From the NCBI GenBank assembly GCA_963847915.1, contig CAWKBT010000001.1, forward strand, positions 64,539 through 128,538: DNA of 64,000 nucleotides, given 5' to 3'. A program made the translations under genes and the position numbers. The notes beneath the pieces are model-generated. The model was not told the origin of the DNA and searched no databases. It worked only from the letters and a program-made list of their open reading frames with translations. Source of the stretch: an uncultured Alphaproteobacteria bacterium (lineage in GTDB: Bacteria; Pseudomonadota; Alphaproteobacteria; Rhizobiales; Beijerinckiaceae). This document shows, one piece after another, positions 43,962 to 56,727 of this stretch (the stretch's first letter is position 1; each line of letters starts with the position of its first letter).

Positions 43962-46217
43962 GCAGACCCATACCCGCCACGGCTCGAACGTCGGCCAGCC
44001 GCTGACCCGGCGCGAAGGCGTTCTCAAGGTCACCGGCTCGGCCCGCTTCGCGGCCGACAACCATCCCGAAGGCCTGCTCTACGCGGCCATCTGTTCGAGC
44101 ACGATCGCGCGCGGCCGCGTGACGTCGCTCGACGTCGCGGCCGCCAAGGCGCATCCCGGCGTCGTCGACGTCATGGTGCCGGGCAACGCCCCGGCGCTCG
44201 CCTTCGACCCGGACGAGAAGGACAGCCCCTTCACGTTCCGCATGGACGTGCTGCAGAACGATCGCGTCCGCTACGCCAACCAGTCGATCGCGGTGGTGAT
44301 CGCCGAGACGCTGGAGGCCGCCACCGAGGGCGTGGCGCTGCTCGCCCCCCAATACGAGGTCGAGCCGGCCCGCATCGGCCTCGACGGCAACGAGAGCTTC
44401 GTGCCGCCGGCCGTCGGCGTCGGCGAGCCGCCGGACATCGACAACGGCGGCGACGTCGAGGCCGGCCTCGCGGGCGCATCGAAGCGCCTCGACGCCACCT
44501 ACGAGACGCCGGCCCAGTACCATAACGCCATGGAGCCGCACGCCATCGTGGCGCAGTGGGACGGCGACAAGCTCGTCGTCGACACGCCCAGCCAGGCCCT
44601 CACCATGGGCCAGGGCCGCATCGCGCAGCTGTTCGGCCTGGACCCCGCCAACATCCTGATCCGCTCGCCCTTCCTGGGCGGCGGCTTCGGCTCGAAGGCG
44701 CTGATGAAGGGCCCGCAGATCCTCGGCATCATGGCGGCCCGGATGACGGGCCGGCCGGTGAAGCTGGTGCTGCGGCGCGACCAGATGTTCGGTCCCGTCG
44801 GCCATCGCGCCCCGACCCGCCAGACGGTGCGGCTCGGCACCGACGACGAGGGCCAGCTCCAGGCCATCCATCACCACAACCATACCGCGACATCGAGCCT
44901 TCGACGACTTCTTCGAGCCCGCCGCCAACCTGTCGCACACGCTCTACGCGGCGCCGGCGCTCAAGACCTCGCACTACGGCCGTGCGGCTCGACACCGGCA
45001 CGCCGCTGTTCATGCGGGCGCCCGGCGAGGCTTCGGGTTCGATCGCGCTGGAGAGCGCCATCGACGAGATGGCGGAGGTCTGCGGCATGGACCCGCTGGC
45101 CTTCCGGCTCAAGAACTACGCCGAGGTCGAGCCCATCTCGGGCAAGCCCTTCTCGTCCAAGAACCTGCGTCAGTGCTACGAGCGGGGTGCCGAGGCCTTC
45201 GGCTGGTCGCGGCGGGCGGCGAGGCCGCGCGCCATGCGCGACGAGGCCGGTCTGCTGGTCGGCTGGGGCATGGGCACGGCGACCTTCCCGGCGCTGATCT
45301 TCGCCGCCGAAGCGCGCGCCACCCTCAAGGCCGACGGGACGGGGCTCGTCGAGATCGGCGCCGAGGACATGGGGCAGGGCGCCTGGACGGCCCTGGCACA
45401 GATCGCCGCCGACGGGCTCGGGCTCGACATCGACCAGGTCGAGTTCCGCATGGGCACGTCCGACCTGCCGAGCGGCGGCATCGCGGGCGGTTCGGGCCAT
45501 ACCGCGACGGCCGGCAATGCCGTCCACGCGGCGGGCGGCGACGTCATCGCCAAGCTGGCCCGCCTCGCCACCGACGACCAGCGCTCGCCGCTGTTCGGCG
45601 CCGGCAATGCCGGCGTGGTGGCCCGCGACGGGCGCCTCGTGCGGCGCGACGACGAGAGCCGCGGCGAGAGCTACGCCGAGATCCTGGCGCGTGCCGGCCT
45701 GCCGGCGATCGAGGGCACCGGCAGCGCCGGGGCCGACCCCGACGCCCAGAAGCGCTACGCCATGCATGCCCATGGCGCGGTCTTCGCCGAGGTGAAGGTC
45801 GATCCCGACCTCGGCCAGATCCGCTGCACGCGCCTCGTCGGGGCCTTCGCGGCGGGCCGGGTGATCAACCCGCGCCTCGTGCAGAGCCAGCTCTTCGGCG
45901 GCATGATCTGGGGCGTGGGCTTCGCCCTCACCGAGGAAGCCGTGATGGACCCCCGCTCGGGTCGGCCGCTCAACGCCAACCTCGGCGAATACCACGTGCC
46001 GGTGAACGCCGACGTGCCCTCGCTCGAAGCCATCATGGTCGACGAGACCGACACGGTCATCAACGCCCTCGGCATCAAGGGCGTCGGCGAGATCGGCATC
46101 ACGGGCACGGCCGGCGCCATCGCCAACGCGGTCTACCACGCGACCGGCGTGCGGGTCCGCCAGGCGCCGATCCGGCTGGACCACCTGCTCGGCGCCCTGC
46201 CGCTGGCGGCCGAATAG
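43954..46217 (+). pseudogene. molybdopterin-binding large subunit of the hydroxylase, with two +1 frameshifts as given
   Basis: MPEQTHTRHGSNVGQPLTRREGVLKVTGSARFAAD... reads cleanly to ...AIHHHNHTATS. The frame changes at the extra C at 44898-44899 (giving SFDDFFEPAANLSHTLYAAPALKTSHY) and again at 44980-44981 (giving VRLDTGTPLFMRAPGE... through to 46217). The length is 3n+2. Confidence 0.85.
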
Positions 46218-46293
46218 CGGGCGGCGGCGGGCGCCTCACTTCGGCCCGGGGTGGCGCCCGCTCCGCCGCGCGCGAGACGGCGGCGGAGCGGCC

Positions 46294-47161
46294 TCACGCC
46301 CCGTCCGGCGTCTCCCAGGCCGGCACGCTGCGCCGCAGGCCATGCGCGCCCTTGTAGGCCGCGTTGGCCGGAAGCGGCGGAGACCAGCCGGCCAGCACGC
46401 CGTCGGCGAGGCGGAAGACCTCGACCCGCAGCGGGCGGCACACCGAAAGCGGGTCCCGCGCGTCGGGACCCCAGAGCGGCACCGACAGGTCGCCGCCCGG
46501 ACAGGTCGAGAGGGCGCAGAGCAGGTCGATCTCGGCGAAGAACTCGATGAAGTCGCCGGGCTTCGCCGGGCAGTCCCGCATGAAGTACTTGTCCTCGGCG
46601 TTGAGCCCCGTGCACTGGAAGACGTTGAGCACGTCGTGCACGTCGGCCTCGTCGAGCCCGTGCGGCAGCACCGCGCGGGTGAGGTTCGAGTGGCAGCAAT
46701 AGTCGAAGTCCTCGCCCGTCAGCATGCGGTTGACGTAAGGGTCGCAGCGCGTGCCCCAGCAGGTCGTGGATCCGCCCGCCATAGGCGTCGACGCCGTAGT
46801 CGGCGAGGCTGTCGGCCGTGATGGTCACCAGCGGCCGCAGGTAGGGCAGGGTGGACCAGAGCCGGTCGAAGGTCGTGACATGGGCGGCCTGGAGCTGGCG
46901 CGTGCGCGAGGCCCAGAGCCGCTCCCGCGGGTTGTCGCGGTTCCAGATGTTGAGGTCGCCCACCTGCGGCCCCTCGGGCGCCACGATGCGGAAGACGTGG
47001 CCGGCCGGCACCGTCCAGGCCCGGCCGGTGCGGATCGGCACCTCCACGGTCTCGACGAGGGTGCGGCCGGCGGGGTCGGCCGCGACCCGGCCGTAGAAGG
47101 CCCGGTCGGGGTCGAGCGGCGAGCCTGCGGTGGCCTGGTAGGCGGCGGGGAAGTTCAGCAC
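46294..47161 (-). pseudogene. DUF1989 (urea-carboxylase-associated) family protein, with one frameshift as given
   Basis: N-terminal ORF 46133..47161 is sensible to ...YGGRIHDLLG. It continues as GTRCDPYVNRMLTGEDFDYCCHSNLTRAV... in ORF 46294..46782. The switch is at the CCCC run at 46754-46757. Confidence 0.75.
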
Positions 47162-47211
47162 GCGCTTGTCTCCTCAAGAAGCGGCGGGGCCCGGGACGCG
47201 CCGGGGCCCGG

Positions 47212-54663: not shown

Positions 54664-55713
54664 ACCCGATCCGTACCCTCGTCGTCGGCCTCGGCCAGAT
54701 GGGTCGCTGCGCACGCCCTGGCCTATGCGGCCGACCCGGCCTTCGCCATCGTCGGCCTCGTCAACCGCTCGCCCGTCGACCTGCCCGAAGCGCTCGCCGG
54801 GTTCCCGCGGCTCGACAGCGTTCGCCGAAGGCCTGGCCCTGCGGCCCGACCTCGTCTGCATCGCCTCCTATACGGACAGCCACGCCGATTACGCCGTCGC
54901 CGCCATGGAGGCCGGCGCCCATGTCTTCGTCGAGAAGCCGCTGGCCGCCACGGTCGAGGATGCCGAACGCGTCGTCGCGGTGGCCGCGCGCGACGGGACG
55001 CAAGCTCGTCGTCGGCTACATCCTGCGCCACCACCCGAGCTGGATCCGCTTCATCGCCGAGGCGCGCGAGGTCGGGCCGCCCTTCGTGATGCGCATGAAC
55101 CTCAACCAGCAATCCTCCGGCGCCGCGTGGGAGATCCACCGCCGGCTGATGGAGAGCACCAGCCCGGTGGTGGATTGCGGCGTGCACTACCTCGACGTCA
55201 TGCTGCAGATCACCGATGCCCGCCCCGTGCAGGTGCGCGGCATGGGGGTGCGGCTTCAGCGACGAGATCGCGCCCGGCCAGGTGAACTACGGCCACCTGC
55301 AGGTCATCTTCGCCGACGGGTCCGTCGGCTGGTACGAGGCCGGCTGGGGGCCGATGATCTCCGAAACGGCCTTCTTCGTGAAGGACGTCATGGGTCCGCG
55401 CGGCGCCGTGTCGATCGTCATGGACGAGGGGGCCGCCTCGGCCGACGTCGAGACCCATACGAAGACGTCGCGCATCCGCATCCACCGCGCCGAGACGGGC
55501 CCGGGCGGCGCCTTCCTGGCGCCCGACGCCATGATCTCCATGGCGGACGAGCCCGGCCACGACGCGCTCTGCGCCCGCGAGCAGGCCTTCATGCGCGACG
55601 CGATCCTCGAGGACCGCGACCTCGGCCGCCACATGGACGACGCCGTGCGCTCGCTCGCCGTGGTCCTGGCGGCCGACCGTTCCATGCGCGAAAACCGCGC
55701 GATCGACCTGTGA
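54660..55713 (+). pseudogene. Gfo/Idh/MocA-family oxidoreductase, four +1 frame switches as given
   Basis: [16 protein letters not shown] / [37 protein letters not shown] / [42 protein letters not shown]...ARDG / [17 protein letters not shown]...[11 protein letters not shown]...VRGMG / [30 protein letters not shown]...RAIDL. The length is 3n+1. Confidence 0.75.
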
Positions 55714-55724
55714 GGACCGACGGC

Positions 55725-56727
55725 ATGGGCGCGCTGGACCTCAAGGCGATCCGCAAGAGCTTCGGCGCGACCGACGTGATCCGCGGCGTCGACCTCGAGG
55801 TCGCGCCGGGCGAGTTCACCGTCTTCGTCGGTCCCTCGGGCTGCGGGAAGTCGACGCTGCTGCGCATCATCGCGGGGCTCGAGGACCAGACCTCCGGCGA
55901 CCTCAGCATCGCGGGCCAGCTCATGAACGGCGTGCCGCCGGCGCGGCGCGGCATCGCCATGGTGTTCCAGAGCTACGCGCTCTATCCGCACCTCACCGTC
56001 GAGGGCAACATGGGCCTGGCCCTGAAGCAGGAGGGCGTCGAGCGGTCCGTCATCGCGGCGCGCATCGCGCGTGCCTCGGCCCTGCTCCAGCTCGATCCCC
56101 TGCTGGCGCGGCGCCCCGCGGAACTCTCGGGCGGGCAGCGCCAGCGCGTCGCCATCGGCCGCGCCATCGTGCGCGAGCCCAAGCTCTTCCTCTTCGACGA
56201 GCCGCTCTCGAACCTCGACGCCGCGCTGCGCGTCGGCACGCGGCTCGAGATCGCCAAGCTGCACCGGCAGCTCGGGGCCACCATGGTCTACGTCACCCAC
56301 GACCAGGTCGAGGCCATGACGCTGGCCGACAAGATCGTGGTGCTGCGCGCCGGGGTCGTCGAGCAGGTCGGCTCGCCGCTCGACCTGTATCGCCGCCCCG
56401 CCAACCGCTTCGTCGCCGGGCTTCATCGGCTCGCCGGCGATGAACTTCGCCGAGGGCGAGGCCGCGGCCCGCGTCGGGGCCGCGGCGATCGGGATCAGGC
56501 CCGAGCACCTCGCGGTGTCGCGGGACGGCGCCTGGGCCGGGACGGTCTCGCATGCCGAGCACCTCGGCTCCGACACCATGCTCTACGTCGACGTGCCCGG
56601 CCTCGGCCTGATGACGGCACGGATCGGCGGCGAGGAGGACCACCCTGTCGGCACCCGCATCGGCCTCACGCCCCGTGACGGCCGCGTCCATCGCTTCGAC
56701 GCCGAGGGGCGGACGATCGGGGCTTAG
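55725..56727 (+). pseudogene. sugar ABC transporter ATPase (UgpC/MalK type), one +1 frameshift as given
   Basis: [36 protein letters not shown] and YVTHDQ are all in one frame. The conserved [14 protein letters not shown] motif is split by an extra G in GGG 56418-56420. The remainder (ORF 56440..56727) is in the +1 frame. Confidence 0.85.

What the first reader, a model, noticed from the sequence alone, without database searches (positions are those of the whole stretch)
44890..56430. Eleven consecutive genes broken by about 30 or more single-base frameshifts while about 50 other genes are intact
Every gene from the Mo-hydroxylase large subunit to the ABC ATPase must be read across several frames to recover a normal protein. 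Approximate counts of frame switches:
- Mo subunit: 2 (extra C at 44898-44899 and at 44980-44981).
- DUF1989: 1 (CCCC 46754-46757).
- nagA: 4.
- SIS gene: 4.
- HutC-type GntR: 3.
- murQ: 5 (for example GGG 50672-50674).
- ABC binding protein: 3.
- Two permeases: 3 each (for example GGGGG 53198-53202).
- Gfo/Idh/MocA oxidoreductase: 4.
- ATPase: 1 (GGG 56418-56420, splitting [14 protein letters not shown]).
Between switches the peptides look fully conserved, and I saw no in-frame stops or large deletions. Both insertions and deletions occur, several of them at short mononucleotide runs. Nothing comparable is visible in 1-44.9 kb or in 57.4-64 kb. The simplest explanation is a localised stretch of indel-error-rich sequence. 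The alternative is a very recent decay of an entire amino-sugar utilisation locus that abuts a mobile-element junction. The two explanations lead to very different annotations.
Basis: seen in the sequence. Interest (0 to 1): 0.7.

Follow-up and report, generated by a model that had tools for sequence, protein, structure and literature searches.

The report
Indel-error patch across eleven genes
An 11.5-kb stretch of this bacterial genome sequence carries about 50 stray single-base insertions that break eleven otherwise normal genes, and the pattern points to a local sequencing or assembly error rather than real gene decay, so the genes should be annotated as probably intact.

Summary
Between 44,898 and 56,416 the window carries about 50 small frame-breaking indels (4.5 per kb) across eleven genes. 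A composition-based frame check finds none in the other ~52 kb. A three-way alignment with two relatives that have every aligned gene intact (Lichenibacterium ramalinae L001, ~89% nt; MAG L002, ~83%) assigns 38 non-3n coding indels to the window lineage. L001 has 0 and L002 has 2 (p = 7e-12).

The indels look like errors, not decay:
- Window-specific substitutions equal L001's (370 vs 385) and show the same third-codon-position dominance.
- Once the indels are removed, the nine aligned genes read through with no stops in reliably aligned sequence, at 83-96% aa identity to L001.
- The indels are 36 insertions to 4 deletions in coding sequence, nearly all 1 bp, 86% G/C and mostly outside homopolymers.
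- Density peaks mid-region and tapers at both edges, and the run ignores gene and operon boundaries.
- The insertion sites share no motif, so there is no recoding signal.

The best explanation (about 0.88) is a poorly polished or patched stretch of long-read-type consensus. Genuine decay is about 0.06. Only reads or resequencing can give proof. Interest is low.

The parts
44898..56416 (.). Indel-rich stretch: about 52 window-specific frame-breaking indels (4.5 per kb). Density peaks at 48-51 kb and tapers towards both ends.
   Evidence: First event at 44,898, last at 56,416.
43954..46217 (+). Mo-hydroxylase (XDH-family) large subunit, with two +1 insertions at 44,898 and ~44,974. The downstream 417 aa lie in one frame.
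   Evidence: tblastn frames 1/2/3; blastn gaps vs L002; Pfam MoCoBD_1/2 and Ald_Xan_dh_C on the L002 orthologue.
46294..47161 (-). DUF1989 gene, with one net +1 frame switch at ~46,742-46,758.
   Evidence: Pfam PF09347 positions 2-91 and 86-168 fall in two frames; Viterbi switch at 46,744/46,745.
47212..48365 (-). nagA (GlcNAc-6-P deacetylase): 4 window-specific indels (47672 +1, 47803 -1, 48274 -1, 48344 -5).
   Evidence: Pfam NagA_N + Amidohydro_1 on the repaired protein.
48354..49385 (-). SIS-domain sugar-phosphate isomerase/deaminase gene: 8 insertions (48417, 48479, 48491, 48520 [2 bp], 48533, 48777, 48817, 49370).
49382..50157 (-). GntR/HutC-type (UTRA) regulator: 4 firm indels (49717 +2, 49788 +1, 49813 +1, 49884 -1), plus up to 4 in the poorly aligned 5' end.
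50459..51352 (+). murQ-like SIS etherase: 5 insertions (50672, 50724 [2 bp], 50882, 50943, 51271).
51412..52685 (+). ABC substrate-binding protein: 6 insertions (51409/51423/51475 near the N-terminus; 52444, 52473, 52672).
52845..53813 (+). ABC permease 1: 3 insertions (52917, 53203, 53294).
53821..54663 (+). ABC permease 2: 3 insertions (53846, 53942, 54203).
54660..55713 (+). Gfo/Idh/MocA oxidoreductase: 4 insertions (54708, 54797, 54985, 55260).
55722..56727 (+). ABC ATPase (ABC_tran + TOBE_2): 1 insertion at 56,416 that splits RFVAG|FIGSPAMNF.
56735..63142 (.). Adjacent low-GC (53-60%) island, absent from L001 and L002. Its ORFs all read as long uninterrupted ORFs (IS1595 transposase 60471-61424, HTH-IrrE/M78 58750-60000, and others). 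It is not part of the indel-rich stretch.

Best explanation
The frameshifts are technical errors confined to an ~11.5-kb stretch of the deposited sequence. The organism most likely has intact genes here.

The proposed mechanism is inferred, not shown. This stretch would be represented by a low-depth or unpolished consensus of error-prone single-molecule reads. Examples are a long-read bridge or gap-fill in a hybrid assembly, or a local drop in coverage or polishing. Such reads make many more indel errors than substitution errors, so the result is stray 1-bp insertions and almost no extra substitutions. Depth or correction falls off towards the middle of the stretch, which would explain why error density is highest in the centre and tapers at both edges.

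Shown here:
- The indels are specific to this sequence.
- They are insertion-biased and nearly all 1 bp.
- They pay no attention to gene boundaries.
- They come with no evolutionary signature of gene death.

Inferred: the platform and the assembly step that produced them.
For: 1. Lineage specificity. In the three-way alignment, non-3n indels in coding sequence number 38 for the window, 0 for L001 and 2 for L002 (both at gene ends). The window and L001 branches are equally long in substitutions, and p = 7e-12.
2. No decay signature. Window-specific substitutions by codon position are 70/53/247, against 63/61/261 for L001. The excess is at most 30 at the 95% bound, for about 50 indels.
3. With the window-specific indels removed, all nine aligned genes read through at 83-96% aa identity to L001. 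The only stop is one in the poorly aligned 5' edge of GntR.
4. Spectrum. There are 36 insertions to 4 deletions in coding sequence, 42 of the events are 1 bp, and none is a multiple of 3. Genuine pseudogenes show an insertion:deletion ratio of about 0.76, with much larger deletions (PMC6054270). The departure has p = 7e-10.
5. The run starts inside the XDH large-subunit gene and ends inside the ATPase gene. It also covers intergenic DNA, so it follows position rather than function.
6. Density tapers from 8-13 per kb in the centre to 1-2 per kb at the edges.
7. The other ~52 kb, including the adjacent island, shows no frame breaks.
8. An indel-dominated, homopolymer-independent error profile and ~10-kb reads used for scaffolding hybrid assemblies are described for PacBio RS (PMC4719071). 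Gene-fragmenting indels are a recognised artefact of long-read assemblies (PMC12007338).
Against: - No reads, coverage, quality values or assembly metadata could be examined, so the artefact is inferred, not demonstrated.
- No same-species copy of the locus was found for comparison in genomes, metagenomes, plasmids or the protein database.
- The errors are mostly not in homopolymers. That is atypical of Nanopore, HiFi, 454 or Ion Torrent consensus errors (PMC12007338).
- 21 of 35 inserted bases sit in a CpG, against 32% expected (p = 8e-4). I cannot explain this.
- Why errors should be confined to one 11.5-kb unique region needs an ad hoc cause such as a patch or a coverage drop. No repeat or duplication in the window accounts for it.
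Confidence: 0.88

Rival explanations
1. Genuine, very recent pseudogenisation. The amino-sugar utilisation locus, plus the neighbouring DUF1989 gene and part of the XDH gene, has really accumulated about 50 small indels in this strain.
For: - The frameshifts are physically in the sequence.
- The locus adjoins a strain-specific island carrying an IS1595 transposase, a setting in which local gene loss can occur.
- The non-homopolymer contexts are not those of the commonest sequencing errors (PMC12007338).
Against: - There are no excess substitutions and no flattening of the codon-position pattern on the window branch. Roughly 50 fixed indels would normally come with several hundred neutral substitutions. 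That expectation rests on my background knowledge of mutation-accumulation spectra. PMC6054270 also uses extra nonsynonymous change to date pseudogenes.
- After repair there are no stops in reliably aligned sequence and no large deletions in coding sequence.
- Insertions outnumber deletions 36 to 4, the opposite of the deletion bias in bacterial pseudogenes (p = 7e-10).
- The boundaries cut through genes and span functionally unrelated genes.
- Density tapers at both edges.
Confidence: 0.06
2. A localised, real mutational burst that generates almost only +1 insertions. One possibility is error-prone synthesis across a long single-stranded gap during repair, recombination or DNA uptake next to the island.
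For: - The events are clustered and taper at both edges.
- They are biased towards G/C and CpG.
- No substitutions accompany them, so a single recent event could fit the data without violating the relative-rate test.
Against: - I know of no bacterial process that yields ~50 non-homopolymer +1 insertions over 11.5 kb without substitutions.
- A cell that lost eleven genes in one event would still have to reach fixation.
- No hotspot motif exists at the sites.
- The technical explanation needs no new biology.
Confidence: 0.03
3. The genes are functional despite the frameshifts, through programmed recoding (ribosomal +1 frameshifting, transcriptional slippage or RNA editing) at each site.
For: The peptides between switches are fully conserved and there are no stops after conceptual repair.
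Against: - The 35 insertion sites share no motif in coding orientation. The maximum is 0.23 bits per position, within the small-sample null.
- There are no slippery runs; the longest homopolymer is 3.
- The orthologues in L001 and L002 are ordinary single-frame genes, so no shift site is conserved.
- Indels also occur in intergenic DNA.
Confidence: 0.01

Closest known systems
Gene-fragmenting indel errors in long-read or hybrid bacterial assemblies (for example, as treated by Kastor, PMC12007338)
   Same: - Short (1-2 bp) indels absent from close relatives break otherwise conserved genes into apparent pseudogenes.
- Substitutions are not elevated.
- The genes are restored by removing the indels.
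   Different: - Here the errors are confined to one 11.5-kb stretch rather than spread across the assembly.
- They are overwhelmingly insertions.
- They are mostly not in homopolymers, whereas Nanopore and HiFi errors are homopolymer-associated.
- The profile is closer to that described for PacBio RS continuous reads: indels ~15 times substitutions, with little homopolymer or GC bias (PMC4719071).
Genuine multi-indel pseudogenes of bacteria under reductive evolution (for example Candidatus Burkholderia leaf-nodule symbionts, PMC6054270)
   Same: Several independent frame-breaking indels per gene, in neighbouring genes.
   Different: - Real pseudogenes show an insertion:deletion ratio of about 0.76, deletions several-fold larger than insertions, and extra nonsynonymous change that is used to date them.
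- Here the ratio is 9:1 in favour of insertions, almost all events are 1 bp, and substitutions and codon-position pattern match an intact orthologue.
Programmed +1 ribosomal frameshifting (prfB type)
   Same: A single extra base must be skipped to read the full protein.
   Different: - There is no conserved shift site or stimulator.
- About 40 different sites are involved.
- Orthologues are unshifted.

Membership tests
Sequencing/assembly indel artefact | The indels are private to this sequence, while close relatives have uninterrupted genes. | tested here: met
   38 window-specific non-3n coding indels, against 0 in L001 and 2 in L002. The reference ORFs are intact.
Sequencing/assembly indel artefact | No evolutionary trace of loss of function: normal substitution rate, codon-position pattern kept, no stops. 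| tested here: met
   370 vs 385 lineage-specific substitutions. Codon positions 70/53/247 vs 63/61/261. No internal stops in reliably aligned repaired genes.
Sequencing/assembly indel artefact | The distribution follows position, not gene function or coding status. | tested here: met
   The run starts inside XDH-L and ends inside the ATPase gene. It includes intergenic events and tapers at both edges.
Sequencing/assembly indel artefact | Low coverage, low quality or lack of read support at the indel positions. | not testable with these tools
   No reads, quality values or assembly metadata are available.
Sequencing/assembly indel artefact | Error contexts typical of a known platform (homopolymer association for Nanopore, HiFi, 454 or Ion Torrent). 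| tested here: not met
   Only 10 of 35 insertions extend a run and the longest run is 3. This excludes the homopolymer-type platforms as the simple cause. It is compatible with the unbiased, indel-dominated profile described for PacBio RS, but the platform stays unidentified.
Genuine bacterial pseudogene cluster | Reading frames are disrupted relative to functional orthologues. | tested here: met
Genuine bacterial pseudogene cluster | Relaxed selection after inactivation: extra substitutions, especially at codon positions 1 and 2, and nonsense codons. | tested here: not met
Genuine bacterial pseudogene cluster | Deletion-biased indel spectrum with a range of lengths. | tested here: not met
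   36 insertions to 4 deletions, nearly all 1 bp. p = 7e-10 against the benchmark of PMC6054270.
Genuine bacterial pseudogene cluster | The indels are reproducible in independent reads or in sister strains. | not testable with these tools
   No same-species sequence was found.
Programmed frameshifting / recoding | A shared slippery or stimulatory motif at the shift sites. | tested here: not met
   No position exceeds the null information content.
Programmed frameshifting / recoding | The shift is conserved in orthologues. | tested here: not met
   The L001 and L002 genes are each in a single frame.
Phase-variable (simple-sequence-repeat) loci | The indels lie in homopolymer or short tandem-repeat tracts. 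| tested here: not met
   25 of 35 insertions are not adjacent to an identical base.

The most novel reading that the evidence does not exclude
The insertions are really in the DNA and record a single, regionally confined mutational event that makes almost only +1 G/C insertions (often creating CpG), without substitutions. An example would be aberrant error-prone synthesis over a ~11-kb tract next to a newly inserted island. That would be a kind of bacterial 'indel shower' not described so far.
Probability: 0.03. Interest if true: 0.7.

Novelty: not a real feature. Interest (0 to 1): 0.08.

Why it matters
The main consequence is for annotation. Taken at face value, eleven genes would be called pseudogenes and the strain would be scored as unable to use these sugars. 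The genes are a complete GlcNAc/MurNAc-type amino-sugar uptake and catabolism locus, a DUF1989 gene and an Mo-hydroxylase subunit. The evidence says the genes are most likely intact and the sequence needs polishing.

The case also shows a reference-based way to separate error from decay without reads. The steps are to assign indels and substitutions to a lineage using two relatives, compare codon-position patterns, and compare the insertion:deletion spectrum with that of genuine pseudogenes.

If the indels were confirmed in the DNA, the pattern would point to an unknown mutational process. That is unlikely.

Tried and rejected
- Exact-protein look-ups of the intact flanking genes, to find the same genome in another assembly, returned nothing.
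- A metagenome scan for a same-species locus gave 89% aa at best. A plasmid-collection search did not find the source record.
- The protein-database top hit P0001 looked like a near-identical relative. It proved to be a 62%-identity tandem-fused binding protein whose score was inflated by two matches.
- tblastn alone was too noisy for the minus-strand genes, because off-frame translations of 75-78% GC DNA give spurious weak matches. I replaced it with the three-way DNA alignment.
- My first GC2/GC3 filter for reference genes dropped real genes and was relaxed.
- A candidate frameshift outside the region, at ~30,020, was rejected because it is an ordinary gene start.
- Repeats or a duplication as the cause of failed polishing: there are no long repeats in the window, though the rest of the genome could not be checked.
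- GC content as the driver of error density: not significant (Spearman 0.28, p = 0.44).
- A recoding or hotspot motif at the sites: none.
- A literature search for the source genome ('Lichenibacterium') did not identify it.

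
Full report
**What the window is.** The window is ~72% GC alphaproteobacterial DNA. A scan of reference genomes with an in-frame stretch of the substrate-binding protein found two useful relatives. L001 is Lichenibacterium ramalinae RmlP001 (a contig named in SPAdes style), 96% aa identical in that stretch. L002 is a metagenome-assembled genome labelled 'Janthinobacterium lividum' that is clearly a relative of the same group, at 92% aa. At the DNA level L001 aligns to window 47,211-56,734 at ~87-89% identity. L002 aligns from 41,069 to 56,708 at ~83-85%, including the XDH operon. Both relatives jump from ~56.7 kb to ~63.1-63.2 kb of the window. So window 56,735-63,142 is an insertion specific to this genome. 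It has 53-60% GC, an IS1595 transposase, an HTH-IrrE/M78 regulator and small ORFs of unknown function.

**Checking the observation.**
- A GC3 frame plot and a Viterbi segmentation into six coding frames plus non-coding show gene-sized frame blocks up to 44.9 kb. Between 44.9 and 56.7 kb they show fragments of 77-980 bp.
- I asked whether each segment ends at an in-frame stop. Sixteen segments inside 44.9-56.4 kb run on open past their end, which is the frameshift signature.
- One such candidate lies outside, at ~30,020. It is simply the start of an intact 305-aa ORF.
- tblastn with L002's proteins splits the Mo-hydroxylase large subunit into frames 1, 2 and 3 at 44,898 and 44,974. It splits both permeases into three frames each and the ATPase into two at 56,419.
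- Pfam puts the two halves of DUF1989 in different frames, switching at ~46,742-46,758.
- Both references carry every aligned gene as one uninterrupted ORF.

**Assigning the indels to a lineage.** A three-way MAFFT alignment of window 47,272-56,708 with L001 and L002 gives these lineage-specific events:

| Lineage | 1-bp ins | 2-bp ins | 1-bp del | 2-bp del | Longer del |
|---|---|---|---|---|---|
| Window | 33 | 4 | 9 | 1 | 3 |
| L001 | 1 | 1 | 0 | not tallied | not tallied |
| L002 | 1 | 0 | 5 | not tallied | not tallied |

L002's 1-bp events are mostly intergenic. Restricted to coding sequence, non-3n indels number 38 for the window, 0 for L001 and 2 for L002 (both at gene ends), with p = 7e-12. 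Per-gene counts are nagA 4, SIS 8, GntR 4 firm (up to 8), murQ 5, binding protein 6, permeases 3 and 3, oxidoreductase 4, ATPase 1. XDH-L adds 2 and DUF1989 adds 1. The total is about 52 events between 44,898 and 56,416, or 4.5 per kb.

**Decay or error?** Four results bear on this.
1. *Relative rate.* Window-specific substitutions by codon position are 70/53/247. L001-specific ones are 63/61/261 and L002-specific ones 177/149/591. The window branch has no excess: the difference is -15, SD 27, with a 95% upper bound of +30. It keeps the same third-position dominance as the intact genes of L001. Genes dead long enough to fix ~50 indels should show many extra substitutions spread over all codon positions. 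PMC6054270 uses exactly this excess to date pseudogenes.
2. *Repair.* Once the window-specific indels are removed, all nine aligned genes read through at 83-96% aa identity to L001. The only stop is one in the poorly aligned 5' edge of GntR. Pfam recovers the expected full-length domain sets.
3. *Spectrum.* In coding sequence there are 36 insertions and 4 deletions, almost all of 1 bp and none a multiple of three. Genuine bacterial pseudogenes show an insertion:deletion ratio of about 0.76-0.79, with deletions far larger in total size (PMC6054270). The departure has p = 7e-10.
4. *Geography.* The run begins in the middle of the XDH large-subunit gene, which is functionally unrelated to amino-sugar use. 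It ends inside the ATPase gene and includes intergenic DNA. Density peaks at 8-13 per kb at 48-51 kb and tapers to 1-2 per kb at both ends. The island next door reads as long uninterrupted ORFs. This follows position, not function.

**Nature of the errors.**
- Of 35 single-base insertions, 19 are C, 11 G, 3 A and 2 T.
- Only 10 extend an existing run, and the longest run is 3.
- 21 lie in a CpG, against 32% expected (p = 8e-4).
- In coding-strand orientation no position around the sites carries information above the small-sample null. So there is no slippery site, stimulator or hotspot motif, and programmed recoding has no support.
- Homopolymer-associated error modes, as described for Nanopore and HiFi (PMC12007338), do not fit.
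- An indel-dominated profile that is largely independent of homopolymers and GC is described for PacBio RS continuous reads. So is the use of ~10-kb reads for scaffolding hybrid assemblies (PMC4719071). That is compatible with an 11.5-kb stretch of low-depth or unpolished consensus.
- This platform assignment is an inference. I could not identify the source record or see any reads. The CpG enrichment remains unexplained.

**What I could not do.** No same-species copy of the locus exists in the collections I could search. The apparent best protein hit was a 62%-identity tandem fusion. There are no long repeats in the window that could explain a failure of short-read polishing, but the rest of the genome is unseen.

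**Verdict.** The frameshifts are in the sequence as described and are more numerous than reported. They are best explained (about 0.88) as a localised sequencing or assembly artefact. The locus is an ordinary amino-sugar utilisation cluster, conserved in gene content and order in L001 and L002, flanked on one side by DUF1989 and an XDH-family operon. The cluster comprises nagA, a SIS isomerase/deaminase, a GntR/UTRA regulator, murQ, an ABC transporter and a Gfo/Idh/MocA oxidoreductase. Genuine recent decay gets about 0.06, an unknown insertion-only mutational burst about 0.03, and recoding about 0.01. Biological interest is low. The practical message is to re-polish or resequence 44.5-57 kb and not to annotate these genes as pseudogenes on this evidence.

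Noticed in passing
window 56735-63142: A 6.4-kb low-GC (53-60%) island, absent from L001 and L002, is inserted just after the ATPase stop codon. It carries a DUF7830-like protein (57402-58052, -), an unknown 231-aa ORF (58152-58847), an HTH + IrrE/M78 peptidase regulator (58750-60000), a small HTH protein (60114-60428, -), an IS1595-family transposase (60471-61424) and three unknown minus-strand ORFs (61447-62830). No clear target-site duplication and no tRNA were found.
   Followed up: partly
window 44898-56416 (35 single-base insertion sites): The inserted bases are enriched in CpG context (21 of 35, against 32% expected, p = 8e-4) and in G/C (30 of 35), yet depleted at homopolymers. This does not match the usual descriptions of any platform's consensus errors that I could cite, and it remains unexplained.
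   Followed up: partly
L002 (JBPBQY010000031.1): This MAG is labelled 'Janthinobacterium lividum' (a betaproteobacterium). Its contig is nevertheless syntenic and 83-85% nt identical to this Lichenibacterium-like alphaproteobacterial window over >15 kb, so the label or the binning looks wrong.
   Followed up: no
window 46218-47170 vs L002 4654-5749 and L001 4739-5638: The DUF1989 gene between the XDH operon and nagA is present only in the window. L002 has a different short segment there, and in L001 the XDH operon is not adjacent at all. The left flank of the amino-sugar locus is therefore variable among relatives.
   Followed up: no
L161 3690-5783 (ENA ERZ23498364 scaffold_34407), protein P0001: A 697-aa ORF made of a partial and a complete copy of this family of sugar-binding proteins, fused in tandem (each ~62% identical to the window's protein). 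It could be a real duplication-fusion or an assembly artefact.
   Followed up: no
window 16280-16551, 18253-18524, 18733-19004: Three diverged copies (65-77% identity) of a ~270-nt segment lie at spacings of 1973 and 480 nt on the minus-strand coding region. They are probably paralogous domains or genes and were not examined.
   Followed up: no
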